From positions 3,827,568-3,891,567 of the forward strand of contig NZ_LT907982.1 in the NCBI RefSeq assembly GCF_900230215.1: a DNA stretch of 64,000 bases. Direction: 5' to 3'. The notes below the pieces were generated by a model. That model was given only the letters and a program-made list of their open reading frames with translations. It ran no database searches and was not told where the DNA came from. This document shows positions 10,312-44,700 of the stretch, piece after piece (the first letter of the stretch is position 1; every line of letters starts with the position of its first letter). A program made the translations under genes and the position numbers. Source of the stretch: Jatrophihabitans sp. GAS493. GTDB lineage: Bacteria > Actinomycetota > Actinomycetes > Mycobacteriales > Jatrophihabitantaceae.

Positions 10312-11079
10312 ATGGCAAAGAATGCGGGTGCGTCGAAACCCGCCAAATTGACGCGTGCAGAGAAGAAGGCGGCCCGAGCGGTCAAACGGGCCTCACGGAA
10401 AGAGACGTTCCGCCAGCTTCGCGAAACCTTCACCATCACCCGCAAGGCCGACTCGAAGCTGATCCCGCTTCTGATCATCGCCTTCGTGGTGACGGCTGCG
10501 GTTCTGTACGTGGTGCTGCTACTGATCTTCGGATCGGTCTGGCTGCCGATCCTCCCGGCCGTCCTCTTTGGTGTGCTGGCGGCATTCGTCCTCTTCGGTC
10601 GCCGTGCTCAGGCCTCGTTGTACGCCCAGGCCGACGGTCAGCCCGGCGCGGCGGGTTGGTTGCTGCAGAACCAGCTCAAGGGTGACTGGCGGGTGACCCC
10701 GGCGATCGTCGGGAACTCGCAACTGGATGCGGTGCACCGTCTCGTCGGGCGTCCCGGCGTGGTGCTCGTGGGCGAAGGCTCACCGGCCCGCGTCCGCGGT
10801 CTCATCGCCCAGGAGAAGAAGAAACTCTCGCGGCTCACCGGCGAAACCCCGATCTACGACATCGTCGTCGGCTCCGGTGACGGCGAGGTCTCACTGGCGA
10901 AGCTGAGCAACCATCTGCGCAAGCTGCCGCCGAACCTCTCCAAGGATCAGGTCAGCGCGCTGGATCGTCGGCTGCAGGCGATGAGCGCTACCCGTGCTCC
11001 GTTGCCGCAGGGTCCGATGCCGGCCGGCGCCAAGATGCGCAACGTGCAGCGGGCCGCCCGCCGCAAGTCCGCTACGTGA
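10312..11079 (+). CDS. DUF4191 membrane protein (Rv2219-like)
   Basis: 255 aa, two TM helices, Lys-rich N-term; conserved position downstream of lipA. Confidence 0.8.
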   Translation: MAKNAGASKPAKLTRAEKKAARAVKRASRKETFRQLRETFTITRKADSKLIPLLIIAFVVTAAVLYVVLLLIFGSVWLPILPAVLFGVLAAFVLFGRRAQASLYAQADGQPGAAGWLLQNQLKGDWRVTPAIVGNSQLDAVHRLVGRPGVVLVGEGSPARVRGLIAQEKKKLSRLTGETPIYDIVVGSGDGEVSLAKLSNHLRKLPPNLSKDQVSALDRRLQAMSATRAPLPQGPMPAGAKMRNVQRAARRKSAT

Positions 11080-24100: not shown

Positions 24101-24769
24101 CTAGAGGCCGGTGATGCGGATGCCGGCGTGCGTCTTGTATCGACGGTTCACCGCGATGAGGTTGGCGGTGAGCGCCTCGACCTGACCGGCGTTGCGCAGC
24201 CGCCCGCCGAAGATGCCGCGCACGCCGGGCAGCAGTTCGGCCAGCGCCTGCACCGTGTCGGTCGCTGATCGCTCTTCGCCGAGCACCAGGACGTCGAGGT
24301 CCAGGTCGCTGACCGTCGGGTCGGAGAGCAGCACAGCACTCACGTGGTGGAAAGCGGCGACCACGGTGGAGTCCGGGAGCAATCGCGCTGCCTCCTCGGC
24401 TGCACTACCGTCGTCGGTCAGCAGCGGGTACGGGCCGCGTTCGTCGAAGCCCATCGGGTTCACGCAGTCGACGACGATCTTGCCCTTCAACTCGGTGACC
24501 AGCCCGGTGAGCGTCTTCTCGTGAGCCTCCCAGGGCACCGCGACGACAATCACATCGGCCGCGGAGGCTGCGCCCGCGTTGGAGGCTCCGGTGACCCGGC
24601 CGCCGGTGATTCGGCCACTGAGCTCATCTGCGGCCGTGTGAGCCCGCTCGGCGTCTCGCGACCCGATGATCACGCTGACGCCGGCGTTGGCGAATCGATA
24701 GGCCAGTCCCTGGCCCTGCCCGCCGGTGCCTCCCAGGATCGCGATGGTCAAAGCGGTGACGTCAGTCAA
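24101..24769 (-). CDS. fno: F420-dependent NADP(H) oxidoreductase (Fno/NpdG family)
   Basis: 222 aa; Rossmann IAILGGTGGQGQGLAYRFANAG; family size and C-terminal region consistent. Confidence 0.85.
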   Translation of the reverse strand: MTDVTALTIAILGGTGGQGQGLAYRFANAGVSVIIGSRDAERAHTAADELSGRITGGRVTGASNAGAASAADVIVVAVPWEAHEKTLTGLVTELKGKIVVDCVNPMGFDERGPYPLLTDDGSAAEEAARLLPDSTVVAAFHHVSAVLLSDPTVSDLDLDVLVLGEERSATDTVQALAELLPGVRGIFGGRLRNAGQVEALTANLIAVNRRYKTHAGIRITGL

Positions 24770-24944
24770 GGAGTTCTCCTAATGCACGGCTAGCTCGGTC
24801 CGCAGGCGCTTTCCACCGGCAGAGATCCGACGTTACGCGAAGCCGTACTGAGACTGATCAGCCGTACCTGCATCCCAGTCTTGGCGACCACTGAGATGCT
24901 GACGCGATCCGGTATGCCGTCAGGCACCGGCCGGGGCTGTGGGC

Positions 24945-25490
24945 TTAACGGCCGGTTCGGCGCGCTACGACCTTCTTAGCCGGAGCCTTGCGGGCGGGCG
25001 CCTTCTTCGCCGGCGCCTTGGTGGCCGGCGCCTTGCGGGCCGGAGCCTTGCGGGCCGGAGCCTTGGTGGCGGTGGTCTTCTTGACCGGTGCCTTCTTCGC
25101 GACGACCTTCTTCACGGGTGCCTTCTTGGCCACAGCCTTGGCGACGACGCTCTTGGCCGGCGCCTTCTTCGCGGGCGCCTTCTTCGCAGGTGCCTTCGCG
25201 GCCACAACCTTCTTGACCGGCGCCTTCTTCGCGACGACCTTCTTGACCGGCGCCTTCTTCGCGACGACCTTCTTCGCGACGACCTTCTTGGCGGGTGCCT
25301 TCTTGGCGGGTGCCTTCTTCGCGGGAGCCTTCGCGGCCACAACCTTTTTGACCGGCGCCTTCTTCGCCGGTGCCTTCGCGGCCACAACCTTCTTAGCGGG
25401 CGCCTTCTTCGCGGCCACCACTTTCTTCGCAGGCGCAGCTTTCTTCACTGCCGCTTTCCTAGCGGGCGCCTTCTTGGCCGGTGCGGTCAT
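24945..25490 (-). CDS. Lysine/alanine-rich histone H1-like (HU C-terminal-tail-like) nucleoid-associated protein, no globular domain
   Basis: 181 aa made almost entirely of [11 protein letters not shown]-type repeats (~33-bp DNA periodicity); strong SD AGGAGG 8 nt upstream of ATG at 25490; resembles PAKK/KAAK tails of mycobacterial HupB and actinobacterial H1-like proteins. Confidence 0.6.
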
Positions 25491-25640
25491 CTTGTGTTCC
25501 TCCTAGAGAGAACGAACGGTCTGAAAAAACCTTCGATAACACACAGTTGACGATGGCTAACCGCCGTCGTCAATACGCCACGCCGCATTCATGTTGCCGA
25601 CGGATCGCGGTAACTCACCGCGACGAATACGCCGAACCAT

Positions 25641-25832
25641 TCAATCCTGATCGGACTCCTCTAGTTTATAAGCCTTTTCTCGGTCGGCAATCGTCTGTAA
25701 CGCGTGGGCTGCGGCATCGGCGGTTTCGAACGGCCCAATTTTATTTTCGCTGTCGACGTCTGCGAAAACCTCGACGCGATGATGGGTAACGCAGTACCAG
25801 AACGTCCCATCCTGATCCTTGGTGGAGAACAT
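25641..25832 (-). CDS. Small hypothetical protein (63 aa)
   Basis: ATG preceded by AGGAG 9 nt upstream; sequence MFSTKDQDGTFWYCVTHHRVEVF... non-repetitive with good GC3. Confidence 0.45.
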   Translation of the reverse strand: MFSTKDQDGTFWYCVTHHRVEVFADVDSENKIGPFETADAAAHALQTIADREKAYKLEESDQD

Positions 25833-25920
25833 CGAATCACTCCTGTCATGGCGAACGTAGCGCTGCCCGACGTGGCAGTTGCTGCCTATCTGAGTATTCC
25901 TACCCAGATAGGCAGCGGAC

Positions 25921-26311
25921 GAGTCGACCTATAAGCCGGGTCCTGTCCCGACGCGAACGCCGGGGGCGATCATCCATCTACGCCTACCGTCACCGGCAGG
26001 CTCTAGCGGTCTACCCGCAGACTCGGGCGAGCAGCCCTCGAACGCCTGCGCAAGCCAATGAAACATTGGCTCTTCTCGACCTTGCTCCGGGTGGGGTTTA
26101 CCTAGCCGCCGCAGTTGCCCACGACGCTGGTGGTCTCTTACACCGCCGTTTCACCCTTACCCACACGCGAACGCGTGGGCGGTCTCTTCTCTGTGGCACT
26201 TTCCCGCGGGTCGCCCCGGGTTGCCGTTAACAACCACCCTGCTCTGTGGAGCCCGGACTTTCCTCGGCGAAGTCGGTAAGGACTTCGACGCGATCGCCCG
26301 GTCGGCTCGTC
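25921..26311 (-). ncRNA. rnpB: RNase P RNA (bacterial type A)
   Basis: Minus strand contains universal P4 motif GAGGAAAGUCCGGGCUCCACAGAGCAGGGUG near the 5' end and ACAGGACCCGGCUUAU near the 3' end; terminal strands can form P1 (GAGCCGACC / GGUCGACUC). A 121-aa ORF (26138..26503) across it is spurious. Confidence 0.85.
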
Positions 26312-26360
26312 CGCCGCGCCGCCGATGCTACCTGGTTGCCGCCTCGATAGCCTTCGGTAC

Positions 26361-27113
26361 GTGACGCTCCCCCATATCGCTCTCCTCCTGATCGCTGGAT
26401 TCGCCGGAGGGTTCGTCAACGCGATCGCCGGTGGCGGGTCGCTCCTGGTTTTTCCGGCTCTTCTGGCGACTGGCCTCGGCACGGTCGCCGCCAACGTCAC
26501 CAACTCGGTGGCCCTATGGCCGGGCTACATCGGCAACCTGGCCGGTCTCGGGCGAGCCGCCGTGGACGAGGCCCGGGCCAGGGTCGATCTCGCCCTGATC
26601 GCGGTGCTCGGCGCAGCGGTTGGCGCCGCCACTCTCCTCGTCACCCCGGAAGGCGCCTTCGATTTTGTCGTGCCGATACTGGTGATCGTCGCGTCACTGC
26701 TGGTCGGCGTCCAGCCGGTGATCGCCCGGCGGATCGGTGCCGAACAACACCGACGGCCGGTGGCTCTTCGCGTCGCCGTGGGTGTCGGCTCGTTTTATGG
26801 CGGCTACTTCGGGGGTGGCCTCGGCGTCATCCTCTTGGCCGCGATCGGTCTGACGATGGCGGCGCCACTGCGCGAGATGAATGTGCTGAAGGCCGTACTG
26901 ACGATGGTCGTCTCGACGGTCTCACTCTTGACCTTCGTCTTCTTCGCTCCGGTGCACTGGGGCGACGTCGCCGTCATCGCGCCGGCCGCGCTCCTCGGCG
27001 GCGTACTCGGAGGCCGGGCCGCTCGCGTCGTCGACGAGCGTGCGCTCCGGATCGCCATCGTCACCTTCGGGCTGGGTATCGGCCTCTGGTTGGGCATCCG
27101 CGTCTACGCCTGA
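26361..27113 (+). CDS. Sulfite exporter TauE/SafE family membrane protein
   Basis: Multiple TM helices; GFAGGFVNAIAGGGSLLVFPAL and internal repeat GGYFGGGLGVILL; GTG 26361 chosen so as not to overlap rnpB (ORF opens 26325). Confidence 0.8.
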   Translation: MTLPHIALLLIAGFAGGFVNAIAGGGSLLVFPALLATGLGTVAANVTNSVALWPGYIGNLAGLGRAAVDEARARVDLALIAVLGAAVGAATLLVTPEGAFDFVVPILVIVASLLVGVQPVIARRIGAEQHRRPVALRVAVGVGSFYGGYFGGGLGVILLAAIGLTMAAPLREMNVLKAVLTMVVSTVSLLTFVFFAPVHWGDVAVIAPAALLGGVLGGRAARVVDERALRIAIVTFGLGIGLWLGIRVYA

Positions 27114-31285: not shown

Positions 31286-32716
31286 ATGCTTTTCTGGCAT
31301 GTACCAGCCCCGAACGAAGCACTGCTCATCTCAGGCTCCAAGCGCGGTTCGGCGGAGTTGCAGTTCCGTATCGTCACCGGTCACGGCACGTTCGTCCCGC
31401 CGGTAATGCAGAAGGCGCGACTGCTGTCGCTGGCCCTGCGCGAGTCCCAGATCATCGAGGATTGCGTTACCCGCCAAGGGGTGCGCCTGACCATTCAGGC
31501 GGTGGCCGCATTCAAGGTCGGCGACGACCATCAGTCCATCGCCAACGCCGCCCGGCGATTCCTCACCGAGCAGGAGCGCCTGGAGGAACTGGTCGGACGG
31601 ATCTTCGCCGGGCACCTACGCTCCATCGTCGGCGCACTCACCGTGGAGGAGTTGATCCGGGAACGCGAGCGGGTGGCACAGGAGGTGAAAGACGGCAGCC
31701 ACAGCGAGATGGAGAAGCTGGGAATCGTGGTGGATGCCCTGCAGATTCAGGAGATCATCGACAAGAGCGGGTACATCACCAACCTGGCCGCACCTCACGT
31801 GGCGGCCGTCGCCAGCGCGGCCCGAATCGCGGCCGCCAAGTCCGATCAGGAGGCCTTCGAGCGAGAGCAGGAGGCGGGCGCACTGAAGGCACTCTACGAG
31901 CGCGACGCCTCGATCAAGATGGCCAGCTACGCCGCTGAGACCGAGAATGCCCGGGCCAAGGCGGCGCAGTCGGGCCCGCTGGCTCAGGCCCAGGCAACCC
32001 AGGAGGTGATCGAGCAGCAGACCGCGCTGGCACGACGCCAGGCCGAACTGGCCGCCCAGCAGCTTGAGGCTGACGTCCGGCGACCGGCCGACGCCGAGGC
32101 GTACAAGCAGCGCACGATGGCCGAGGCGCGGCGGGACCAGGCGAAGTTCGAGGCTGAGGCCGAGGCCTTCCACGCCACGACGCTGGCCGACGCCAACGCC
32201 CGCGCCGTCTCGGTCAAGGCACGGGCCGAAGCGGATGCCGATGCCTATCGCCGCACCGCCAAGGCCGACGCGAGCGCCGCGGCAATCTCGGTCGAGGCCC
32301 AGGCCGAGGCAAACGCCGAGGCGTACCGGACCACTGCGATCGCCGAGGCACGGGCCAAGGCGGTGCAACTCGAAGCCGACGCCGACGCCGAGGCCAACTC
32401 GGTACGGGCCGCGTCCTTGAGAGACGGCAATCAGCAACTAATTGCGGCCAATCATCTGATCGAAGTACTTCCGATGATGGTCGAGGCGGCCGCCAAGGGG
32501 CTGGCCGGGAGCAACCTCACAGTGCTCAACGGCGCGGAGGGACTGGGACAGATCGTCACCGGCTTGGTGGGTCAGGGCCTGGCCATCTTCGACACCCTCA
32601 AGAAGGCGACCGACCACGCCGAGACAGCCGTTCAACGCAGCGAGTCCGGTCCGGCGGTCACCGCCGGACCGGCCTCAATCGAGGCGGCCCCGACGCTGGC
32701 GGCGACTCGCAACTAG
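31286..32716 (+). CDS. Flotillin / SPFH (band 7) domain protein
   Basis: AAGGAG 9 nt upstream of ATG 31286; SPFH core then long Ala/Glu-rich flotillin-repeat coiled coil. Confidence 0.85.
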   Translation: MLFWHVPAPNEALLISGSKRGSAELQFRIVTGHGTFVPPVMQKARLLSLALRESQIIEDCVTRQGVRLTIQAVAAFKVGDDHQSIANAARRFLTEQERLEELVGRIFAGHLRSIVGALTVEELIRERERVAQEVKDGSHSEMEKLGIVVDALQIQEIIDKSGYITNLAAPHVAAVASAARIAAAKSDQEAFEREQEAGALKALYERDASIKMASYAAETENARAKAAQSGPLAQAQATQEVIEQQTALARRQAELAAQQLEADVRRPADAEAYKQRTMAEARRDQAKFEAEAEAFHATTLADANARAVSVKARAEADADAYRRTAKADASAAAISVEAQAEANAEAYRTTAIAEARAKAVQLEADADAEANSVRAASLRDGNQQLIAANHLIEVLPMMVEAAAKGLAGSNLTVLNGAEGLGQIVTGLVGQGLAIFDTLKKATDHAETAVQRSESGPAVTAGPASIEAAPTLAATRN

Positions 32717-35700
32717 CAGGCCCGCGCCCAGCACCAGCAGCAGCAGGGCAAGGCCCGTGCTCTGCCGGGCGGAGACACCGGTGGCGGCCAACGCCCCGGT
32801 GTTCTCCGTCTTGGCGCTCGGCCGAGCCTTGGGCGGCGTGATGGTCAGCGCCTCCACCGCGAAGTGGGTGGTCGGCGAGATAACGGTCAGCTTCACCGGC
32901 AGCGAGAAGACCGAACCGGCGCCGTTGGTGAAGACGACCCGATAGAGATACCCATTCTCGCCCTTGGTCGCGACGAAGGTCAGGAGCGCGTCCCCGGACG
33001 GGTCGGCGCCGCTGATCCAGGTCCGGCCGCCGTCCTTCGACTTCTGCCAGACGTAGGTCGGCCCGGGGAAGCCGCCGGCGGTGGCCCGGAAGGTGACCAC
33101 CTGTCCGGCCCGGACGCTCACCGCCTTGGGCTGAAGCAGGATCTTGGGAAGCGATGCATTGACCAGCAGGAACGACGACGAGCCGGTGGAGTCGACCGGA
33201 GGCGTGAGCACGCCGCCGCCGACCACCGGCGGAGTCGGCGCAACCAGCACGACCGGCGGTACGAGCGTCGCGATCACGTAGTAGCTGCCGGTGCTGAGGC
33301 CGGCGATGAACCCGCTCGCCACCGCGTTCCCGCTGGCGTCGGTGACCACGAGCAGTGTGATCGCGCCGCCCGGGAAGGTACCGCTGGGCGCGGTCGCGGG
33401 TGCGGTGAAGAGCACCTGCGCACCGGGTACCGGATTGCCGTACTGATCGAGCGCCGTCGCGGTGAGCGGCAGTCGGAACGGACGTCCCACGAGAGCGATC
33501 TGGAAGGTGCCCGTGGTGGCCACCACGGTGACCGCGGCGCCGGCCAGGTTGGTGAGGGCGAAGACGGCCGAAGAGACGGTCGGGGAGACCGCACCGGCGC
33601 CGGAGATGACACCGACGACGCTGTACGTGCCGGACTTGGTGCTGGCGGTCAGGATCGACGAGGTCGCCAGGCCGTCGAGGCCGGTCACCTCGGTCTCAAC
33701 CGCCGTCGCATTGCCGAAGGTGGCCGTGGGGACGGTGAGGCCACGTGGCCCCACCGGTGCGGTGAAGACGACCGTGACACCGGGCTCCGGGTTTCCGTAG
33801 CTGTCGGTGACCAGGGCGGTAATCGGTGCACCGAAGGCGGTTCCAACCAGCGTCGACTGCGGTGTGCCGGCTTGAGCGGTGATATGTGCCGGGGCACCGC
33901 CACCGAGTTCGTTGGGCAGTACCACTGGCACCCGGGCCGGGGTGAGACCACAGGCGACCCCGGGGGCCGATGCGACGTTCAACGCGGCCCGGCCGGTGCG
34001 GACGTTGACGCAGAAGAGGGCGTCGACGGCGGCGTTGTCGGCCGGGTTCAGAATCGGGCCGTAGCGGTTGGCCGAACTCGGTGCGATGGTGGCGATCGGC
34101 TGGAACGGGTCGGCCGTCGAACTCGCCGGGGCCAGTGCCACCACGTTCAACACGACCGGGGTGAACCAGTTGGTCGCATCGAAGGTGACGGCGGCCAGGT
34201 TGTCGCCGCCGGCGGCGACGAAGCGACCGTCGCAGCTGCACGGGTCGTAGATCACGAAGCGGCCACCGGTGTTGATCCGGTACGTCACTGGGCCGGTCGG
34301 GGCGGCGCTGAGCCGCAGCGTCAGCTGCGAACCGACCTGATCTCCGGCGGTGACCACAAGGGCCGGCGGCGAGACGATGAGACCGCTCTTGACGGTAAGC
34401 AGATTGACCACGACCCGCAGCGGGGTCTTGAGCGCCTTCGCGTACGCCTGGTACGCCGGATCGGTGCTGGTGACGGTGTGTGTGATGACATTCTTGCCAT
34501 TCGGGTCAAGCACCAGCGCCGGATTCGCTGTACCGCCAGTCGGCTGGGTTGGCGGGGGCGGGGCAAGCGTGGCGGCGACGGTGATCGTCACCGGCAGGAA
34601 CCAGTTCGTGGAGTCGAAGGTGATGCTCTGGGTGGCGGCGTCGAAGCGGGCGTCCGCGCTCGTCACGGTGAGCGTCGTCGGGTCGAAGCCGAGGGCGATG
34701 GTGACCGTCGTGCCGGCGGCCGGGGCGGCGGCCAGCACCACCGTGTAGCTACCGGTGATCCCCTGGGGCGGGGTACCGGCCAGCACGCTGACTCCGCCGT
34801 CGGGTTGGGTGATGATCACACCGGGCTGCGATGCGCCGAGCAGGTTCACGTACACGTTGCGGATCGACACATGGTTGTACCGATCGTCGCCGCTCTGGCT
34901 GCTGTGGCTGATCGTCTCGACGGTCGCGCCGGGCGCGGTGACCGCGCCGGTGATCGCTCGGACGAGCACCGTCTTGGGCCCGGTCTCGCCCGCGGCGAAG
35001 ACGAGAACCACGTTGTCCGACCACGTCAGGCCCCCGTCGATCGAGACCTGGGCGAACGGCGTGCCGGTTGCGAAGGCGGCCGAGATGTTCACGTACACGG
35101 TCGCCTTGGGCGGCGTGGCCAGGCGGACGGTGTAGCTGTCAGTCGCACCGTTCGTCGTTACCGCGGTCGAGCCGCCGGTCTCGGTGATGATGATGGACCC
35201 ACTCCCCTGGTCGATCACCGTCACCGGTACGACCGTCGGGGTGTTCGCCTCAGCCACGGTGCCGATCGTGATCTGACCGGTGGATCCGCCGGTCGCCAGG
35301 ACTCCGCTGATGATCGGGGTGAGCAGGCTCGACAGACCGGTGAGGAGGGTCGAGGCGGCAATGACGAACGGGCCACCGCCGGGCTGATGCAGGTTCTGGT
35401 AGCTGATGTTCAGTCCCTGCCCGAAGACACCGGTGGGCGTGGTGAGGATGTCGTGGGCGTCACCCACCGCCAGCACGTAGAGCTGGCTGGCTCCGGTCCC
35501 GCCGTCGACCGAGACCGGGGCGTCGATGTTGTACACCGGCACCGCGATCCGGACCGGCAGGGGCAGCAGGTTGGTGGCGAAGGTGTCCACCATCGGGCGC
35601 CCGGTGGTGGGATCGATGAGGGCGGAGGTGATGAAGGTGAAGAGGTCGTTGCCGGTGCCGGCCTCAAGCCTCAGTTCGGCCTTGTTCGAGTAGACCAGGA

Positions 35701-38700
35701 ACGTGTCGTTCCCGGCGCCGCCGTAGATGGTGGTCGGGAACCTGTTGCCGCGGCTCAGGAAACCGATGTTGGTCTGGGTGGTCGCGAACTGGTCCTCGGG
35801 GAGCACGTACGGCGCGACCCGCGGCAGGTAGTAAAGCTGTCCGACGTCGAAGGTGTCGTTACCGTCACCGCCGTTGATGGTGGTGATCGCGCTGTTGTCG
35901 TCCATGGCGAAGAAGTCGTCGCCGCCGAGGCCGTTGACGGTGAGCCGGCTGTTGATGTGCTCGTCGTAGTTGATCCGCTCCACGTCCTGACGCTTGCGCC
36001 CGAGCACGTCGGTGTAGGTGCCGTGCAGCAGCGCCACGAAGGCCGGCGACTGGGCCTGCGGCTGGTCGGGGATGAAGGAGGAGCCGCGCATCAGGAAGAC
36101 ATCAGGTCCGTCGGCCCCATTGACGGTGAGCGTGTTCCGACCACCCAGCGGCCCGGTGTTGAGAACGTCGATGCGGTAATCGTGGGTGGCCGCCGCGTCG
36201 CTGCCCCAGGTGTTGACGACGTAGGTGTTGTCACCCAGTTCACCGTTGAGCATCAGGCTGTCGCGGACTAGTTGGCCGCTGTACTGGTCGCCGGAGGTGT
36301 CGACGTGCTTGCCGGTCATCGTCTGCAGCCGGTCGACCTGGAAGAAGTCGTTGCCGTCGGGGCTCAACCCGCAGTTGGTGCTGACGTTCGTCGGCGGGCA
36401 GTTGCCGGTGTTCGGCGTTGCACCGTAGACGTTGGTCTGGCCGCCGAGCAGCGTCTGGTCGAAGTAGAAGTTGTCATCGCCGCGACCACCGAAGATGTTC
36501 GTCGGGTGACCCACCACGATGCCCCGGAAATGCATGGTCGATCCGACTGCGGGGCCGGTGACCGGCTCCAGGTACTCACCGTAGATCCAGACGGTCGCGG
36601 CGAAGATGAGGCTGCTGACCGCGGTCTCCACGTCGTTGCCGACCAGCAGCCGCACCTCACCGCTGGCCGCCGCGATCAGCCCCAGAGCCAGCACGACGCT
36701 GCCGTCCAGGGTGCTACCGCTGCCGAGCAGGGTCAGGTCGGCGTCGGTGCGGCCAGTGGCGAACGGCACCCGCAGCCGCACGTCGCCGTGCACCGACTGG
36801 GCGCGCAAGACATTCAGCGCGCCGTCGGTCTCGGTGAGGTAGATGCCACCACCGGGCAGTGCCACCGCCCCGATCACGTCGCCGCCGAATCCGTCGGCGT
36901 AGGCGTAGAGGCGACCGGTGGCCGAACTGCTGGAGTTGATCCGGACATCGCCGGAGGCATCGGAGGTGTAGGTGCCGATCGAGCCGCCGTGGGCGATCAG
37001 ATCGATACTGCGGGCCACGATGCTCGCCCCGGACGCGCTGTGGTTGTCCAGGATCGAGCCGGCGTCGGTGACCAGCGCGATGTCGGAGGTGAGCGAATCA
37101 GCCAGCGCCACATTCAGGTTGCCCTGGGTCTGCTCGATGAAGATGCCGGAGTTGGCCAGGGCCAGTAGCGCGCCGACGGCGGCGTTCGAGGAGTGGATCT
37201 CTAGGTAGTTGACCGTCGGGGTGACGAAGCCGATGCCACCGTGCAGGGCCAGCAGGGTGATGTTGTTGCCGGTCACCCGCGCCACGCCGTCGTCGGTCGC
37301 GGCGACGTCGAAGATCGAGGCCGGGTCGTCGGCGGCGATGAGTACGACGTCGTTGTTGGTCGAGGTGATGGTGCCGACCCGCAGGTCGCTCACCGTCTCG
37401 GTGTCGGTGATTCGCCCGTTGGTGAAGAGATCGATCTCGCCGACCTGGTCGCTCTGCGACAACTGCAGCGCCGGGTTACCCAACGCGAAGAGCGTGGCGT
37501 CGACGTTGGTGTGGGCCACGAACGTCACCTGGGTGCCGGTCGCGACGTGCCGGACGTTGATGTTGTTGCCGGCGCTGAGATCGGTGAAGTTGTAGGTGCT
37601 GTCGATCGGCGTCAGCACGTTGCCGAAGACCATCAGCACCGGGTCGTTGTCGACGAAGGGCTGATCCGGCCGGAAGAACACCCGGTAGAGACCGGTGCCG
37701 GGGAGGTTGGTGACCAGGTCCGGCGGGTTGTGCAGGTTGACCTGGATCGCCTCCGACGGCCATTGCGGCGCGTCGTTGCCCCACGCGCTGTCGTTCACGA
37801 CGATGTCGATGTTGCCGCCGGCGTGGATAGGTCCGAGGGTCGGCGCGAACGGCGTCTGGTTGGCCCGCAGGATCGAGGTGATGTCCAGGACGACGTTGCC
37901 CAGCGCCTCGGCGACCAGGGAGATGAAGCGGGTCGGGTCGACGTTGTCGACGATGTAGTCGCTCTGCACCAGCAGCACCGGAATCGGAATACGGATGCTG
38001 ATCCCGAAGAGGTTGAAGAGGATTCCGATCGATCCGGCCGGAGCCTCGAGCACCAGTGTGTTCGTCTCGATGAGCGGGCTGTCCGGTCCGGCGAAGATGT
38101 TTCCGCGCCCGTTGTTGACCACGGTGCTGCCGATCGGGTTGTAGATCAGCCCGTCGATGGTGACGTCGGAGTCGGCCACACTCCCGGCGAAGTTCTCGAT
38201 GTCGACCGCGGTGGGTGTGAAGATCGGCGGCCCGACGTGGAAGGTGAACGGGATCTGGTTGAGCTGGACGGTGACCGTCGCGCCCGGGTTGTTCAGGTTG
38301 ACGACATTGATGATGTGGGTGGTCAGCGCCCGGCTGGAGTAGTTGTAGATCTTGACGAAGTCGAAGGTGTTCTGCTGGACGAACTTCCCCTGGCTGCCGT
38401 CGATGAGGCTGGCCGGTGCGGTCGATCCGCCTTCGGTCTGGGAGACGCTGGCGTTGAAGAGCGCCGTCGCGCCGCCGTTGTTGACGATGTCCTGAACCTC
38501 GATGATGCGCCCGGACGGAATGGTGTCACCCAGGTCGTAACTGTTGCCGAGGTCGTCCTTCACCGTGATGCCGTAGAGCTTCACGATCTTGCCGCTCGAG
38601 TCGACGATCAGTTGCGGATCGGGTGTGTGCAGGTAGACGTCGGCGTTCCAGTGGATGGTGCGCTGGGCGTTGTTGTGGCTGCTGCCGTGGTTGCCGCCGC

Positions 38701-41700
38701 CGTCGAAGACGGCTCCGTCGTTGTCGTGATCGGTGTTCCAGTTGGTGACGTTCTGCACGACCTCGACGTCGAGGTGGCCGGTGCGGATGATCGCGGTGGC
38801 GTTGGCCGTGACGTCGGAGTCGCTGTTGTAGGTGATGTTCTCGGTGGTGTTGGTGTCACCGCCGAAGCAGCTGCAGTGGGCGTCGGTGTTGGCCGCGAAG
38901 CTGAGGTTGAGTGCGTTGGCCGCGATGCCCACCGTCTCATACCCGACGATCTTGGTGGCGCCGTCGATCTGCACCTGCTGGCCGGTGTTCGCGGTGATGG
39001 TGGCCTCGGCGTCGGACGCCGCGCCGAGGGCTGACGCGTGGGTGTGGCCGTTGTTGTGGGCGGTGATGCTGTCGGTCTGGGCGGTCAGTTGCACGTTGTC
39101 GGCGGTGAGGTGGGTGCCGGACTCGAGGTGGACGGTGGTGGTTCCGGTGACGTCCAGGTTGTTGGTTGCGTCGCCGTCGTCACCGGCGTGGGCGTCGACC
39201 CCGAGGCCACCCCCTTCGGCGCTGGTCGAGATGTTGCCGTTCACCGCGCTGTGGGCCTCGATATTGATGTTGTTGCCGGCGGTGATACTTCCGGCGATGT
39301 CGGTGAGGGTCGTGTAGTTGTCGGTCGACTTCGAGTAGGCGCTGACCCCGGCCCCGAGGCCGCCGCCGCTGGCGTTGGCCGACGAGATGGCCTGCACGAA
39401 GTTGAGCGGCGCGATCTTCACGCTGTCACCGGCGGTGAGGTTGGTGCCGGAGTCGAGCTTGACGGTGGTGTTCCCGGTGGCGGTCGCCTTGGCCTGCGCG
39501 CTGCCGACCGAGATGAGGCCGCCACCGCCGTTGGAGGAGTTCGCGCTGACGCCGGTCGAGGAGTTTGTGGTGATGGTGATGGAACCGACGGTGGTGAGCG
39601 AGGTGTTGGCGCCGACCTCGACGTTCACGTTCACCGTCTCGGTGGCGTTGGTGTTGGCGTGCGTGGAGTTGATGAAGCCACCCCCGCTGCCGGTCACCGT
39701 GGCGGTCGAGAGGACACCGCCACCGGCGGCCGGGCCGGTGATGCCGACCGGCGCCAGCTGCTGGGTGCCGCTGCTGGTCGCGGTCAGGTCGACGATGAGG
39801 TTCTGATCGCCGGTTCCGACGCCGATGGCGACCGGGGCGAGCTTGATGGTGCTGGCGCCGACTCGTCCGGTGCCGTCGAGGGTGAGCGGTGACCCATTCG
39901 GGGTCGAGGCCAGCTGGAAGGACGTGCCCGTGGCGTTGACCACGTAGTACCGGCCGCCGTCGGCCAGGCCGCCGATCGGCTGCTGACCCGGCGCGTAGAG
40001 ACCCTGCTTGATCGCCGCGCCGGCGGCCGACTTGTCCGGCGTCAGCGGCAGCGCCTGCTGCGGGATGGGGTTGTTGTCACCGTCCACGCAGGTTCCGGTC
40101 GCGTGGCAGAGGGAGTCGGCGAGCTGGATCTGGTTGGCGTTGATGTTGATGACGTAGTAGGTGACGCCGTTGGTCAGACCACCGATCGGCCCGGTACCAC
40201 CGTCGTAGACGACTGCGGTGCCGGTGGCCAGCCCGTGGTTGTGAATCAGGATGCGGTTGTCACTGTTGTTCTGCACCGGGTAGATCGGGTTGTTACTGCC
40301 ATCGACGTTGATGCTGACCAGCGCGCTGCTGAAGACGGCGATCGGGGTGGGCGCGGTGTAGGTCACCGGGGTTCCGTTGCCGAACGGGTTGGTGGCATTG
40401 ATCGTGTTTCCCGAGACATTCGCCCCGGTCAGGTTGATCACGGCGGTTGAGGAGTTGGGGTCGAAGAGCTGGATGTGCGAGTCGTCGACCACGTGCACCC
40501 GGTATAGCCCACCCGGGGTCAGGCCGGGGATCGCGCTGCCACCGGAGGGGACTTCGTAGATGACCAGGTCTCCCTCATGCAGGTTGTGGTTGAGGGGGAC
40601 GAAGGTCGGTCCGACCATGCGCCCGAAGGAGATCGTGCTGGTGGCCGGATCGATGTTCGCGCCCCCGAACGTGCTGCCCAGCCGCACGCTGTTGGCGTTG
40701 ACCACGAAGACGTTGTACTGCGCGTTGTTGGTGAGTCCGCCGACGTTCGGGTTCCCGGCGTTGGTGTAGGTGACGGTGTTGCCGGTGAGCAGGCCGTGCG
40801 GCGCGGTGAAGGTGATCGTGTTCGTGCCGGTGTTCACCCCGGTGCTGGCGTCGAAGAAGCCGGTGTTGCCGCTCGGCGGCGGGGCGGTGGTGTTCTGCTG
40901 GGCGGTGACGGTGATGCTGCCGCCAGAGTAGATCTGCGCGTTCGGTGCGATGTTGACGTTCACCGTCGGCGTGTTGTTGATCGTCGAGTTGTTCCCGACG
41001 ATGTTCAGCAGGATCCCGGCCGACGTGCTGCGCGAAGCCGACGTGGCCACCGGCGAGGAGGCCGCCCCAAGGCTGATGTCGCCGACGGTGGTGATCACCG
41101 AACCGCTGCTGGCCAGATCCGCCTCGACGGTGGTCGTGGTGGTTGCGGTGGCCCCGGCATTGCTGACCCCGACGCCGGCGACGCTGGTGTCGCTGATGAG
41201 GGCGGTGCTGGCGTCGCTGCCGGACGCCTGCACCGAGATGGAGCCGGCACCGGGGGCGGCGTTGGTCGCGCCGTGGGCACTGCCGAGCATCTTGGCCCGG
41301 GTGATGCCGAAGTCGTTGGCCGCCGGGTTGCTCACATCGACGGTGGCCAGGCCGCCGTTGACCGAACCGCCGGAGGCGGTGGCGCTGTTGGTGGCGTTGG
41401 CGATCACGGAGATCGCGGCGCTGGGCGCGTTCAGCAGGGCGCCGGCGCCGATGACGGCCGAGGTCACGCTGGCTGCGTCGACGGTCGCCGTCGGTGAGGA
41501 GTCGTGGGCGGAGATGAAGCCTCCGCCCTGCGCCCCCGAGGTGGCCGACGCGGTGCTGGCGCCGACGGCCTTCACGATCAGCCCGGTCGCCCCGCTCAGC
41601 CGTCCGTCGAACTCGGCCGTGAAGGCGCCGGCCGTGCGGCCGATCGGGATGCTCGCGCTGCCGGCGATGAAGCCGCCGTTCACCGAGTCGCTCAGGGCGG

Positions 41701-44700
41701 TGGCGGTGTTGGTGCCGTTGGCCAGCACGTTGACCAGGCCGCTGGAGGCCAGCGCGCCACCACCAGTGGTGGCCGAGACGTTGGCCCCGTTGAGCACTTC
41801 GGCGTCCACCGCCGAGCCGCTGATCGAGCCGAGGCCGATGCCGATCGAGAGTGTGGTCCCCTCCACGGTGTTGGCTCCGGCCGCCTTCACGGTGGCCTGG
41901 TGGGAGGCGAGCACCGCCCCGTTGAGCTGAGCCGCGACCGCAGCGCCGACCTGCGCCTTGGCGAAGAAGATGCCACCGGTGATCAGGCCACCGCTGGTGC
42001 TGGAGACCTTGGCCGCGGCGTAGTTCTGGTGGCCCGCGCCGTCCGGGGTGAGCGTGGCCGACACGAGGACCGTTCCGGTCGAGGTGAGCGCGGTGCTCGC
42101 GGCGACGGTGGCGCTCACCCCAGCTGAGGCCAGCACCTCCGCGTCCACCGAGACGCCGGTGATGCCGACGATGCCGAAGTTCTTCACGTCGACCGTGGCG
42201 ACGGCGGTGTTCTGCCCGCTGGCTGACACGGTGAAGTCACCCGAACTGGTCGTGCCGCCGGAGTAGGAGGCACTGGTCGGCGCGGCGACCTTGGCCGTCG
42301 GCAGCAGCGCGACCAGGTTGATCGCGCCGGCCGCCAGTTGGGACGGGGTGGCGGTGGCGTGATCGGTCGAGGTGGCGGTCACCGAGATGGCGCCGCTGAC
42401 GTGCACCGTGGTCGCGGTCGCGGTGACCGCAGCGGTGACCGAGGCCGAGGATAGGACCTCCGCGTCGGCACCGGCACCGCCGCCGGTGATGAGGCCGATG
42501 GCGACGATCGCCGAGGTGGCGGAGGCGCTGTTGTTCCCGCCGGCACTGACCGTGAAGGAGCCGGCGCTGCCGATCGGGGCGCCGCTGCTGGCCAGGGTGG
42601 CGGCGGCGACGGTTGCGGTCGGGATGCTGACGCTGCCGGAGATGAGGCCGATGTTCGCGGCGTCGGTACTGGCGTTGGCGGTGTTGCCGGAGTTCGCGAA
42701 GACGCCGATCGCCCCGCTGGAGCTGATGCTGCGGGAGCCGATCTGGGCGCTGACCGCCGCGTCCGCGGTGACGCTCGCCGCCACCCCGGCGACCGAGATG
42801 GTGAAGAGCCCGATACCGACCGACTTGGTGCTCGCCTCGGCGTCGTTGGCACCGGCCGCCTTGACGGTGATGCCGGTCGAGGCGGTCACGGCGCCGTTGA
42901 GCGTGGCGGTGACGGCGCCGGCGACGGTTGCCGTGCCGATGTAGACCCCGGCGTCGATGAGGCCGCCGCTGGCGCTCTCCGCGCTGGCCGAGGCGAAGTT
43001 CTGGTGGCCGCTGCCGTCGGCGGTCAGAACGGCCTGGACGGTGACTGCACCGGCGGCGGTGATGGTGGCACTACTCGCGACTGAGGCGGTCACATCCGCC
43101 CGGGCCAGGATCTCGGCGTCCACGATCACGCCGGAGCCACCGGCGAGGTGGAAGCTTGCCACCTTGGCGGTGGCGATGGCGACGTTCTGCCCGTTCGCCC
43201 CGACCAGGAAGGCGCCGGAGGTGGTGACGCCACCGTTGAAGGCGGCGTTGGTGTGCGCACCGACCTTGGCCGTCGGGGTCAGCGCCGAGAGGGTGTAGCC
43301 GCCCACCGCGACCTGCGACGGGGTGGCGGTGGCGCGGTTGGTGGAGGTCGCCGTGACGGAGACCGTGCCGGCACCGGCGTTCACCGTGGTGGAGCTGTCA
43401 TCGACGAGGGCGTCGACGGCGGCGGCACTGGTGATCTCGGCGTCGGATCCGGCGTAGCCGCCGACGATGAAGCCGACCTCGATGATCTCCGACGTGGCCG
43501 TCGCGTTGTTGGTGGCGGTGGCGGCGACGCTCAGACCCTGGCTCTTGAGCACATCACCGAACTCGGCGTGGGTGCGTCCGGCGATCGTGGCGATCGGGAT
43601 GGTGCCACCGGCGCTGATGATCCCGACGCCGGCGGTGTCGGTGTCGGCGGTGGCGGTGTTGTGCGAGGTGGCGGAGACGGCGACCGCGCCGGACGAGGTC
43701 ACCGTCCCGCCGAGGATGGTGGCATCGGTGACCGCGCTACCGGCGATGAGCGCCTGGATGCCGGAGACCGAGACCCCGAAGGCGCCGAGCGCGAAACTCT
43801 TGGTCTGGCCGTCGGCCCGGTTGCCGCCGCCGGCCGAGACCTTCACGCTGCCCGAGTTACTGACGTTGCCGTTCAGTTGCGCGGTGACGGCCGCCGCGAC
43901 GATGGCCTGGGCGATGAAGACACCGATCGAGATGCCGCCGCCGGCGCCGGAGAAGATGCGAGTGCGGGCGTAGTCGGCGTTGCCGGCGGCGTCCGGCGTG
44001 GAGGCGGCGTTGACGCTGACCAGACCGGTCGAGGCGATGGTGCTGGACTTGTTCACGGTGGCCCGGATCGCGGCCTGTGAGGTCACCTCGGCGTCGGCGT
44101 CGACGCCGCTGAGGCCGCCGACGGAGATGCTGATGATGGTTGCCTCGGCGTCGGCCTGGTTCTGCCCGGCGGCGCTGACGGTGATCGAACCGGACGCGGT
44201 GATCTGCCCGTCGACGGTCGCGGTCGTCGAACCGTTGACAGTGGCGGTCGGCAGTAGCGCGCCGATCGTGATGCCGCCGGCCGTCCCACCCGGGGTGGTC
44301 GCGGTGGCGTGGTTCTGCGAGGTGGCCCCGACGGTGACCGCGCCGCCGGCGGCGATGTTCGCGAAGGTGGTGAAGCTGGCGGCGGTGGTGCGGTTCTCGG
44401 TCGCGGTTGCGATGGTGAGCCCGGCGGCAAACCCACCGGCCTTCACGTTCAGGACGAACGCGCTGACGGTATTCGTCCCACCCGCGGTAACCGAGACGCT
44501 GCCGGCGACCGGGCCGTGGCCGCCGAAGGAGGCGGCCGTGGTTCCCTCGATGGTGGTTATCGCCACGCCGGCCCCGACCCCCACCGCACCGACGCCGATC
44601 GAGTAGGCGATGGCCGGGGCGCTGATCGTCGAGTTGGCCGAGACATTCACCGCGCCGACCGGCGAGGCCGAGCCGATCGAGACGTTGCCGATGGTGGCGG

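What the first reader, a model, noticed from the sequence alone, without database searches (positions are those of the whole stretch)
24945..25490. Stand-alone 181-aa Lys/Ala-repeat protein with strong RBS: histone H1-like tail without HU domain
The whole protein is [11 protein letters not shown]-type repeats, like the C-terminal tail of mycobacterial HupB/MDP1 but expressed as a separate gene. The consensus SD implies high expression. It is likely a nucleoid-compacting or cell-surface polycationic protein. The repeat DNA makes both strands open, so strand choice rests on the RBS.
Basis: partly seen in the sequence, partly recalled or inferred. Interest (0 to 1): 0.5.

Follow-up and report, generated by a model that had tools for sequence, protein, structure and literature searches.

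The report
Stand-alone lysine-alanine repeat histone-like protein
A forest-soil actinobacterium has a real, conserved gene for a 181-residue protein made entirely of positively charged Lys/Ala five-residue repeats, in effect the DNA-compacting tail of mycobacterial HU or histone H1 on its own; it is a new example of a known kind of bacterial histone-like protein, not a new kind.

Summary
Window 24945..25490 (-) is a 181-aa ORF with an ATG start and an AGGAGG Shine-Dalgarno (SD) sequence 8 nt upstream. It is built from about 30 copies of a 15-nt (5-aa) unit. Net charge is +64, with no acidic, aromatic or Cys residues. Both strands are open.

The window is Jatrophihabitans sp. GAS493. The gene is real. 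A syntenic 169-aa orthologue is called in Frankineae MT45, and a 144-aa homologue lies in a soil-metagenome contig in a different context. All three share the N-terminus [13 protein letters not shown], an SD, in-frame repeat gain and loss, and an upstream element TTGACG-N12-CATCGTCAAC 54-55 nt before the ATG. Substitutions favour the annotated frame.

The protein is predicted disordered and passes Pfam HC2. It fails the NCBIfam Hc2, Burkholderia H1-like and Rv3852 models, and has no HU, zinc-finger or membrane part.

The most likely function is a sequence-nonspecific polycation that binds and cross-links DNA, as the isolated MDP1 tail does in vitro. This rests on analogy only. Binding of polyphosphate or RNA is a live alternative, and surface display has no support.

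It is a new member of a known kind, of modest interest. Whether this genome's HU lacks a tail could not be tested.

The parts
24945..25490 (-). Coding sequence of the stand-alone Lys/Ala-repeat protein (181 aa plus stop). Net charge +64, no acidic, aromatic or Cys residues, predicted disordered.
   Evidence: ORF listing. Composition. Pfam HC2 71.1 bits against a cutoff of 40. Orthologue in MT45 85% identical, with substitutions at codon positions 1/2/3 of 11/23/65. Best synonymous:nonsynonymous ratio of all six frames, 39:33. AlphaFold pLDDT 55, pTM 0.10.
24963..25413 (-). Tandem repeat array inside the CDS. The 15-nt unit encodes a pentapeptide with a KK pair plus a 3-residue spacer (APA, APV or VVA); there is a higher-order 45-nt unit.
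   Evidence: TRF: 29.5 copies of period 15 and 10.1 copies of period 45. Basic-cluster spacing of 5 residues in 21 of 35 intervals. In-frame gain and loss of units between the three homologues of 181, 169 and 144 aa.
25452..25490 (-). Conserved non-variable N-terminus [13 protein letters not shown]. It is invariant in all three homologues; the first 23 residues are identical between GAS493 and MT45.
   Evidence: Protein alignments. The degenerate pattern for [14 protein letters not shown] retrieved a single metagenome contig.
25499..25504 (-). Shine-Dalgarno sequence AGGAGG, 8 nt upstream of the ATG. An in-frame TAG overlaps its 5' edge.
   Evidence: Sequence. SD survey of window ORFs. Conserved as AGGAGG in MT45 and GAGGAGG in L082. 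In-frame stop.
25491..25573 (-). Conserved leader and promoter region. It is 95% identical to MT45 over the proximal 80 nt, against 50% for the distal intergenic DNA and 84% genome-wide ANI.
   Evidence: Region-by-region identity. ANI from PMC7498423. No significant RNA fold, z = -0.97.
25546..25573 (-). Invariant element TTGACG-N12-CATCGTCAAC. It can be read as a -35-like TTGACG, a 17-nt spacer and TCAACT. In GAS493 it forms a perfect palindrome TTGACGA-N13-TCGTCAA. It ends 54-55 nt before the ATG in all three homologues. It is a candidate promoter and/or operator.
   Evidence: Three-way alignment. Present in the window, L081 and L082 and in none of the other 80 loci. Chance expectation in the window is 0.03. 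Spacing.

Best explanation
This is a genuine minus-strand protein-coding gene of Jatrophihabitans sp. GAS493. Its whole product is an intrinsically disordered polycation: about 30 pentapeptide units, each with a KK pair, net charge +64 and no acidic residues.

The most likely function is a sequence-nonspecific nucleoid-associated protein. The extended chain lies along and between DNA duplexes, neutralises phosphate charge and cross-links neighbouring duplexes. This is the 'double-sided tape' model shown for the isolated C-terminal tail of mycobacterial MDP1/HupB. The result would be length-dependent compaction of the chromosome, plausibly under growth-phase or stress control through the conserved TTGACG-N12-CATCGTCAAC element in its own promoter region.

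Shown here: the gene is real and its frame is correct; it is conserved as a stand-alone protein in three genomes; its repeat architecture, predicted disorder and conserved upstream element.

Inferred only: DNA as the ligand, compaction as the effect, high expression and regulation.
For: Gene reality:
- A syntenic 169-aa gene is called in Frankineae MT45.
- A third 144-aa stand-alone homologue occurs in a different context. Its upstream open frame looks non-coding (GC3 0.64 against 0.90).
- Substitutions concentrate at codon position 3 (11/23/65), with 50 synonymous and 24 nonsynonymous codon changes.
- On a frame-agnostic DNA alignment the annotated frame has the best syn:nonsyn ratio of all six frames: 39:33, against 31:50 for the antisense frame and 13:66 or worse for the rest.
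- All indels are in frame. The ATG, SD and N-terminal 13 residues are invariant.

Polycation and disorder:
- Composition and 5-residue periodicity.
- AlphaFold pLDDT 55, pTM 0.10, no secondary structure. No PDB relative.

Link to DNA-binding tails:
- Pfam HC2 is above threshold in all three proteins: 71.1, 60.7 and 61.4 bits against 40.
- The best database matches are Lys/Ala tracts fused to DNA- or RNAP-related domains: HU, DksA-type zinc finger, an Lsr2-like N-terminus, a RecQ-type helicase.

Mechanistic precedent:
- The isolated 109-aa MDP1 tail binds DNA as tightly as full MDP1 and compacts plasmids more than the intact protein. Electrostatics alone suffice in simulation, and the effect depends on tail length (PMC10810275).
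- The DdbA Lys-rich pentapeptide domain binds and condenses DNA (PMC3643593).
- Hc2 is a stand-alone pentamer-repeat DNA/RNA binder (PMC2848022).
Against: - There are no transcript, protein or binding data for this gene or its orthologues.
- The similarity to all characterised proteins is compositional, so function is transferred by analogy, not homology.
- The NCBIfam models for Hc2, Burkholderia H1-like and Rv3852 are all below cutoff.
- Earlier in vitro work, summarised in PMC5974015, reported only limited DNA affinity for the MDP1 tail alone.
- Similar tails act on other polyanions: AlgP localises to and spaces polyphosphate granules, and MDP1 condenses RNA.
- A Bordetella bpH1 knockout has no growth phenotype.
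- High expression is inferred only from the SD and the conserved leader.
Confidence: 0.55

Rival explanations
1. The protein is a polycationic organiser of a polyanion other than DNA. It could be polyphosphate granules (as with AlgP) or RNA and ribosomes (Hc2- or MDP1-like RNA condensation, an RNA chaperone). It might tether these to the nucleoid or drive coacervates.
For: - The AlgP KPAA-repeat tail is required for polyphosphate granule spacing, and the protein is enriched on granules (PMC9239181).
- Hc2 has high RNA affinity and represses translation (PMC2848022).
- MDP1 condenses RNA (10.1101/2025.08.03.668364 and PMC13639343, abstracts).
- With +64 charge and no fold, the protein has no intrinsic way to discriminate among polyanions.
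- The gene lies about 425 nt downstream of rnpB on the same strand.
Against: - AlgP and PhaF carry an N-terminal helical domain; this protein has no domain besides the repeats.
- Adjacency to rnpB is not conserved in the third homologue, which has a SelD-like gene upstream. A specific link to RNase P is therefore unlikely.
- Most fusion partners of similar tracts are DNA- or transcription-related.
Confidence: 0.25
2. The protein is a surface-exposed polycationic adhesin or envelope-associated protein, like mycobacterial HBHA or laminin-binding HupB, which bind anionic polysaccharides.
For: - HBHA-type proteins with Lys/Ala/Pro C-terminal repeats appear among the hits (P0097, P0109).
- From general knowledge, HBHA and HupB reach the surface without classical signal peptides.
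- The organism is a soil polysaccharide degrader (PMC7498423).
Against: - There is no signal peptide, no hydrophobic segment (maximum 19-residue hydropathy 0.57, longest uncharged run 5 residues), no lipobox and no LPXTG/LAXTG motif.
- It lacks the coiled-coil N-terminal domain present in the HBHA-type hit P0097.
- HBHA itself has since been reported as a nucleoid-associated protein (PMC10665949).
Confidence: 0.07
3. It is not a functional protein gene. The ORF would be a by-product of repetitive DNA, or the functional product would be on the plus strand or a non-coding RNA.
For: - Three frames are open across the array.
- GC3 is equally high in one antisense frame.
- The exact protein is absent from the large protein collections.
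Against: - The annotated frame has the best syn:nonsyn ratio of the six frames.
- The ATG, SD and N-terminus are invariant in three genomes, including one at an unrelated locus.
- All length changes are in frame.
- A gene is called at this slot in MT45. The GenBank accession numbering (SOD74425 for npdG, SOD74427 for the 63-aa protein) leaves one protein accession for this slot in GAS493 (inference).
- The antisense translations (AFFAG... and GRRLL...) have no start or SD support and match no known family.
- The absence from the collection also applies to the called MT45 gene, so it is a property of the database.
Confidence: 0.05

Closest known systems
Chlamydia Hc2 (HctB), histone H1-like nucleoprotein; Pfam PF07382
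   Same: Both are stand-alone proteins of about 165-237 aa built from Lys-rich pentamers (two basic residues plus three Ala/Val/Thr/Pro) with evenly spaced charge. Both have a short conserved N-terminus and size variation through in-frame gain and loss of repeat units (PMC2848022). The Pfam HC2 model is passed.
   Different: The phylum differs (Actinomycetota, not Chlamydiota). The NCBIfam Hc2 model scores 48.7 against a cutoff of 135. There is no counterpart of Hc2's conserved 69-residue C-terminal region. The similarity is compositional, so common descent is not shown. No developmental cycle is known for the host.
Bordetella BpH1 and Burkholderia/Ralstonia histone H1-like proteins (NCBIfam NF038053)
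   Same: These are stand-alone Lys/Ala pentamer-repeat proteins of 149-231 aa with strain-to-strain size variation (PMC2848022).
   Different: The NF038053 score is 63.5 against a cutoff of 80. They are from Betaproteobacteria. BpH1 is expressed in exponential phase and is dispensable; the expression pattern here is unknown.
C-terminal disordered tail of mycobacterial HupB/MDP1, and of Streptomyces HupS
   Same: The same PAKKA/AKKA-type repeats. HupB proteins are among the best database matches. The isolated tail is sufficient for DNA binding and compaction in vitro (PMC10810275).
   Different: There is no HU (PF00216) domain. The protein has its own start codon, SD and conserved promoter region. 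The periodicity is a stricter 5 residues, not the 17-19-residue repeat-like units described for MDP1.
Mycobacterium tuberculosis Rv3852 ('H-NS'), NCBIfam NF050153
   Same: A small actinobacterial protein whose DNA-binding part is Lys/Ala/Pro repeats. It is the best NCBIfam hit by E-value (3e-19).
   Different: The score of 70 is below the cutoff of 100. Only a 37-residue stretch aligns. The C-terminal transmembrane helix that defines Rv3852 (PMC8233713 abstract) is absent.
Streptomyces DdbA (SCO2075) and related tail-plus-DksA proteins
   Same: The Lys-rich pentapeptide repeat domain binds and condenses DNA (PMC3643593). Proteins of this type are the top hits (sequences; the DksA-type zinc finger is assigned by Pfam PF01258 for P0003).
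   Different: DdbA carries a C-terminal DksA-like four-cysteine zinc-finger domain. The protein here has no Cys and no second domain.
Pseudomonas AlgP and PhaF
   Same: A long disordered Lys/Ala/Pro repeat region with H1-like composition that binds polyanions (PMC9239181).
   Different: They have 4-residue KPAA units, not 5-residue KK-xxx units. They also have an N-terminal helical domain (in PhaF, from general knowledge, a phasin domain) that gives granule targeting; this protein has no such domain.

Membership tests
Pfam PF07382 HC2 (histone H1-like nucleoprotein Hc2) | Whole-protein score at or above Pfam's gathering threshold (40 bits) | tested here: met
   71.1 bits for the window protein; 60.7 and 61.4 bits for the MT45 and metagenome homologues. 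Caveat: the model is dominated by composition. It also matches the tails of HU, DksA-like, RsfS, BlaI and other proteins.
Pfam PF07382 HC2 / Hc2-like proteins as described in PMC2848022 | A stand-alone protein made of consecutive Lys-rich pentamers with evenly distributed positive charge | tested here: met
   KK clusters are spaced 5 residues apart in 21 of 35 intervals, lag-5 autocorrelation is 0.74, and the longest uncharged run is 5 residues. No other domain is present.
Pfam PF07382 HC2 / Hc2-like proteins as described in PMC2848022 | Length polymorphism through in-frame gain and loss of repeat units, flanked by a conserved N-terminus | tested here: met
   181, 169 and 144 aa in three genomes, with all indels in frame and the N-terminal 13 residues invariant.
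Chlamydial Hc2 proper (NCBIfam NF038052) | Score at or above the curated cutoff (135 bits), i.e. orthology with chlamydial HctB | tested here: not met
   48.7 bits.
Burkholderia/Bordetella histone H1-like DNA-binding protein (NCBIfam NF038053) | Score at or above the curated cutoff (80 bits) | tested here: not met
   63.5 bits.
Rv3852 family (NCBIfam NF050153) | Score at or above the curated cutoff (100 bits) | tested here: not met
   70 bits, with only residues 139-175 aligned.
Rv3852 family (NCBIfam NF050153) | C-terminal transmembrane helix anchoring the protein to the membrane | tested here: not met
   Maximum 19-residue Kyte-Doolittle hydropathy is 0.57, and there is no uncharged run longer than 5 residues.
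HU / HupB / MDP1 (Pfam PF00216 plus a Lys/Ala tail) | N-terminal HU-fold DNA-binding domain | tested here: not met
   No PF00216 hit. An in-frame stop 15 nt upstream of the ATG excludes an extension. No HU signature occurs anywhere in the 64-kb window.
HU / HupB / MDP1 (Pfam PF00216 plus a Lys/Ala tail) | Lys/Ala/Pro-rich polycationic disordered tail | tested here: met
   The whole protein is such a tract, and HupB tails are among the best matches.
DdbA-type (H1-like domain plus DksA-like domain) | DksA/TraR-type four-cysteine zinc-finger domain (PF01258) | tested here: not met
   No Cys residues and no PF01258 hit.
AlgP/PhaF-type | N-terminal helical or phasin domain plus 4-residue KPAA repeats | tested here: not met
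   No N-terminal domain; the period is 5, not 4.
Eukaryotic linker histone H1 | Winged-helix globular domain and S/TPKK motifs in the C-terminal tail | tested here: not met
   No globular domain and no [ST]PKK motif. Only the Lys/Ala/Pro composition is shared.
Any nucleoid-associated protein | Binds chromosomal DNA in vivo and alters nucleoid compaction | not testable with these tools
   This needs EMSA or AFM with recombinant protein, localisation, and deletion or overexpression in GAS493 or MT45.

The most novel reading that the evidence does not exclude
Jatrophihabitans-group actinobacteria carry a dedicated 'tail-only' nucleoid protein family. It would be a natural counterpart of the engineered isolated MDP1 tail. 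It would be expressed from its own conserved promoter or operator (TTGACG-N12-CATCGTCAAC) and act as a regulated, HU-independent DNA cross-linker for starvation or dormancy. It might have arisen by fission from a tailed HU, in which case HU in these genomes would be tail-less. That would show that bacteria deploy a free linker-histone-like polycation as a separate, separately controlled chromatin component.
Probability: 0.3. Interest if true: 0.45.

Novelty: new member of a known kind. Interest (0 to 1): 0.25.

Why it matters
If it acts as proposed, it would be a natural test of recent MDP1 work: that a polycationic disordered tail alone, with no folded DNA-binding domain, is enough to compact a bacterial chromosome. 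It would also extend stand-alone Hc2/BpH1-type 'bacterial H1' proteins from Chlamydiae and Betaproteobacteria to Actinomycetota.

There is also a practical point. Pure-repeat proteins like this one are invisible to tryptic proteomics. They also appear to be missing from the large protein collections: the MT45 orthologue, although called as a gene, is absent from the sequence collection searched, and neither protein search returned it. Their true frequency is therefore probably underestimated.

That said, Lys/Ala tails are commonplace in high-GC actinobacteria. The gene is already called in public annotation, and no new mechanism is implied. The finding is modest.

Tried and rejected
1. npdG-anchored synteny across genomes. 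The 80 loci are only 55-68% identical, from distant genera, and just one (L066) has a Lys/Ala-rich ORF nearby.

2. Exact-sequence look-ups of the 181-aa protein and its neighbours in the contig index. GAS493 is not indexed there.

3. Homology searches with the repeat protein. These return only longer proteins with embedded Lys/Ala tracts. Neither recovers the 85%-identical MT45 orthologue, so they cannot be used to conclude that stand-alone forms are rare.

4. An exact 22-nt leader word in metagenomes gave nothing. The degenerate N-terminal pattern then gave one contig.

5. Whether HU in this lineage lacks a tail. Cluster look-up of ten HU-plus-tail hits gave no organism names. An HU-core search returned no MT45 or GAS493 protein among the 120 hits listed. 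The question is untested.

6. RNA structure in the conserved leader (z = -0.97) and a terminator between the gene and npdG (z = -0.45; no consensus terminator). Nothing significant was found. A standard sigma-70 -10 hexamer was not found at the right position either.

7. A functional link to the adjacent RNase P RNA. I considered it and rejected it, because the third homologue has a different neighbourhood.

8. Pfam Extensin_1 and valine-tRNA ligase matches. These are far below cutoff and reflect composition.

9. My first motif search used the wrong spacer (N14). It was corrected to N12.
Full report
**What is there**

An AGGAGG Shine-Dalgarno sequence lies 8 nt upstream at 25504..25499. An in-frame TAG overlaps its 5' edge, so the protein cannot extend further towards the N-terminus.

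The product is A59 K57 V27 P22 R7 T6 plus single M, S and G. It has no acidic, aromatic, Cys or His residues, a net charge of +64, pI about 12 and a mass of 18.3 kDa.

The DNA is a degenerate tandem array: 29.5 copies of a 15-nt unit, or 10.1 copies of a 45-nt unit, over 24963..25413. At protein level this gives KK pairs at a strict 5-residue period (lag-5 autocorrelation 0.74). The spacers are APA (x14), APV (x5), VVA (x5) and VVAA (x4).

GC3 cannot separate the gene frame (0.835) from the antisense frame that shares its wobble positions (0.855).

**Where the window comes from**

The neighbouring npdG, a 63-aa ORF and a TauE-family gene are 100% identical to proteins of Jatrophihabitans sp. 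GAS493: SOD74425.1, SOD74427.1 and SOD74428.1. GAS493 is a forest-soil isolate with a single 4.88-Mb scaffold, LT907982 (PMC7498423).

The accession series leaves exactly one protein, SOD74426.1, for the slot between npdG and the 63-aa gene. The gene was therefore almost certainly already called in GenBank. This is an inference from the numbering.

The minus-strand order is rnpB (RNase P RNA, 25916..26309, Rfam 308 bits), the 63-aa ORF (25641..25832), the Lys/Ala gene, then npdG (24101..24769). panB converges from the other side.

**Is it a real gene, and on which strand?**

Frankineae bacterium MT45 shares 84% ANI with GAS493. It has the same arrangement, with a called 169-aa gene in the same slot. 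The evidence from this orthologue:

- The two proteins are 85% identical, and their first 23 residues are identical.
- Substitutions fall 11/23/65 on codon positions 1/2/3, giving 50 synonymous and 24 nonsynonymous codon changes.
- That alignment was guided by the protein, so I repeated the test on a nucleotide alignment and scored all six frames. The annotated frame is best at 39 synonymous to 33 nonsynonymous. The wobble-sharing antisense frame is second at 31:50. The other four are 13:66 or worse.
- All indels are multiples of three.

A degenerate DNA pattern for [14 protein letters not shown] found one soil-metagenome contig, L082. It carries a 144-aa homologue in a different neighbourhood, with a SelD-like gene upstream. 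It has the same 13-residue N-terminus, a GAGGAGG SD, and a stop after the repeats. Its frame stays open upstream of the ATG, but that stretch has GC3 of 0.64, against 0.90 for the repeat ORF and the neighbouring gene. The stretch is therefore non-coding and the protein is stand-alone there too.

The strand call thus rests on much more than the RBS. I put the probability that this is a genuine minus-strand protein gene at about 0.95.

**Regulatory region**

The 80 nt proximal to the ATG are 95% identical between GAS493 and MT45. The distal intergenic DNA is 50% identical, the ORF itself 79%, and the genome-wide ANI 84%.

In all three loci the element TTGACG-N12-CATCGTCAAC is invariant and ends 54-55 nt before the ATG. 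It is absent from the other 80 loci fetched, and its chance expectation in the window is 0.03.

It can be read as a -35-like TTGACG, a 17-nt spacer and TCAACT, which is a poor -10. In GAS493 it can also be read as a perfect palindrome, TTGACGA-N13-TCGTCAA. That makes it a promoter, an operator, or both. The leader RNA has no significant fold (z = -0.97). No terminator-like structure separates the gene from npdG, so read-through into npdG is not excluded.

The SD is the longest anti-SD match among 45 candidate ORFs in the window. That fits efficient translation, but it is not a measurement of expression.

**What kind of protein it is**

AlphaFold gives pLDDT 55, pTM 0.10 and no secondary structure. 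This fits intrinsic disorder, though it was a single-sequence run. No solved structure is related by sequence.

Pfam HC2 (histone H1-like nucleoprotein) is passed by all three homologues, at 71.1, 60.7 and 61.4 bits against a cutoff of 40. The curated NCBIfam models are all below cutoff:

| Model | Score | Cutoff |
|---|---|---|
| Chlamydial Hc2 | 48.7 | 135 |
| Burkholderia-type H1-like | 63.5 | 80 |
| Rv3852 | 70 | 100 |

Two very large protein searches returned only longer proteins in which a similar tract is fused to something else. The partners include:

- HU;
- DksA-type zinc fingers (DdbA-like);
- HBHA-like coiled coils;
- RsfS, BlaI and ribbon-helix-helix domains;
- a RecQ-type helicase;
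- an Lsr2-like N-terminus;
- membrane segments.

The Lys/Ala tract is therefore a promiscuous polycationic module, attached mostly to DNA- or transcription-related domains.

One caveat is important. Neither search recovered the 85%-identical MT45 orthologue, and neither that protein nor the window protein is in the collection by exact look-up, although the MT45 gene is called. Pure-repeat proteins are evidently under-represented, so I cannot conclude that the stand-alone form is rare.

**Most likely mechanism**

The closest experimental proxy is the isolated disordered tail of M. smegmatis MDP1/HupB (109 aa, PAKK-type repeats). Without the HU domain, it bound a 70-bp fragment and supercoiled plasmid as tightly as the full protein. 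It also compacted plasmids more than intact MDP1.

High-speed AFM and coarse-grained simulation support a 'double-sided tape' model. In this model the stretched tail cross-links two duplexes purely electrostatically, with affinity and compaction growing with tail length (PMC10810275).

The Lys-rich pentapeptide domain of Streptomyces DdbA likewise binds and condenses DNA (PMC3643593). Chlamydial Hc2 is a stand-alone pentamer-repeat protein that binds DNA and RNA (PMC2848022).

By analogy, the 181-aa protein, which is longer and more highly charged than the MDP1 tail, should bind DNA without sequence specificity and bundle duplexes. Its variable repeat number (144-181 aa) would tune the strength of the effect.

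The following are shown here:

- gene reality;
- the stand-alone architecture;
- the charge pattern;
- predicted disorder;
- the conserved upstream element.

The following are inferred:

- the ligand;
- the compaction effect;
- high expression;
- regulation.

I give the full explanation a confidence of 0.55.

**Rivals**

1. *Another polyanion (0.25).* Pseudomonas AlgP has a KPAA-repeat tail and sits on polyphosphate granules, which it spaces (PMC9239181). Hc2 and MDP1 also condense RNA. A chain with no fold cannot discriminate among polyanions by itself. A specific link to the adjacent rnpB is unlikely, because the third homologue has a different neighbourhood.

2. *Surface polycation of the HBHA or laminin-binding type (0.07).* The sequence has no export or anchoring signal of any kind. 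HBHA itself is now reported as nucleoid-associated (PMC10665949).

3. *Not a gene, or the other strand (0.05).* The comparative evidence above contradicts this.

**Comparison with known families**

Functionally and architecturally it is closest to the stand-alone Hc2/BpH1-type 'bacterial H1' proteins. A 2010 survey listed these only for Chlamydiae and for Bordetella, Burkholderia, Herminiimonas, Minibacterium and Ralstonia (PMC2848022).

It meets their descriptive criteria: consecutive Lys-rich pentamers, even charge distribution, a conserved N-terminus and in-frame size variation. It also passes the Pfam model. It fails the curated orthology-level models, so it should be filed as Hc2-like by composition and architecture, not as a homologue.

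It is not a member of the other families considered:

| Family | Reason for exclusion |
|---|---|
| HU | no HU domain |
| Rv3852 | no membrane helix; below cutoff |
| DdbA | no zinc finger; no Cys |
| AlgP/PhaF | no N-terminal domain; period 5, not 4 |
| Eukaryotic H1 | no winged helix; no S/TPKK motif |

I found no paper describing a stand-alone version in Actinomycetota, but the library searched is limited.

**Verdict**

It is a new member of a known kind, and Lys/Ala tails are ubiquitous in high-GC actinobacteria. The functional assignment is by analogy only. I score interest at 0.25.

The most interesting open point is whether these genomes have a tail-less HU, which would make this a natural 'split' of MDP1.

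The AlgP paper raises the same concern about trypsin for closely spaced lysines.

Noticed in passing
window 32675..63985 (-): A single giant ORF of 10,436 aa whose ATG lies only 15 nt from the window end. It is rich in Ala, Gly, Thr, Ser and Val, has GC3 of 0.86, and contains many internal repeats (for example IGAGVAINLANV x11). Its first 3000 and last 2999 residues have no Pfam hit at E <= 1e-5. The C-terminus ends in ...LAATG, then a hydrophobic helix, then RRQRRGRLD, which looks like an LAxTG sortase sorting signal. It is probably a giant wall-anchored repetitive surface protein with no recognised domains.
   Followed up: partly
window 25641..25832 (-): A 63-aa ORF between rnpB and the Lys/Ala gene. 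It has no Pfam or NCBIfam match. In a 5.8-billion-protein collection it has just one cluster, containing only the GAS493 and MT45 proteins (100% and 90% identical). It is a lineage-restricted small protein of unknown function.
   Followed up: partly
window 25916..26309 (-): RNase P RNA gene (bacterial class A, 308 bits, full length). It lies about 425 nt upstream of the Lys/Ala gene on the same strand. Several spurious ORFs overlap it.
   Followed up: yes
window 24827..24846 (-), upstream of npdG: A 20-nt block, ACGGCTTCGCGTAACGTCGG, is identical between GAS493 and MT45 inside an intergenic region that is otherwise about 66% identical. It could be an npdG promoter or regulatory site.
   Followed up: no
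proteins P0122, P0186, P0089, P0053 and others: The same Lys/Ala pentamer tract is found fused to very different partners: a RecQ-type helicase (884 aa, N-terminal tract of about 240 aa), an Lsr2-like N-terminal domain, ribbon-helix-helix and BlaI-type regulators, RsfS and membrane segments. This suggests it is a mobile polycationic module.
   Followed up: partly
L066 1..348 (-), uncultured bacterium bin Umea_bin-01319: This was the only one of 80 npdG-anchored loci with a Lys/Ala-rich ORF. The ORF is about 2 kb from npdG on the opposite strand and runs off the contig end, so it is unclear whether it is stand-alone or the N-terminal tract of a longer protein.
   Followed up: no
(database behaviour): The MT45 169-aa orthologue is a called gene in the contig index, yet its exact sequence, like that of the window protein, is absent from the 15-billion-sequence protein collection. 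Neither large homology search returned it. Pure low-complexity proteins seem to be dropped or under-ranked, which biases any estimate of how common they are.
   Followed up: partly
window 10312..11079 (+), N-terminus at about 10312..10401: A 255-aa ORF with a Lys/Arg-rich N-terminal stretch (MAKNAGASKPAKLTRAEKKAARAVKRASRK). It is the only other basic tract found in the six-frame scan of the window.
   Followed up: no
window 26325..27113 (+): The TauE/SafE family gene has two start-site versions in public records: 262 aa in GenBank (SOD74428.1) and 250 aa in RefSeq (WP_197704424.1).
   Followed up: no
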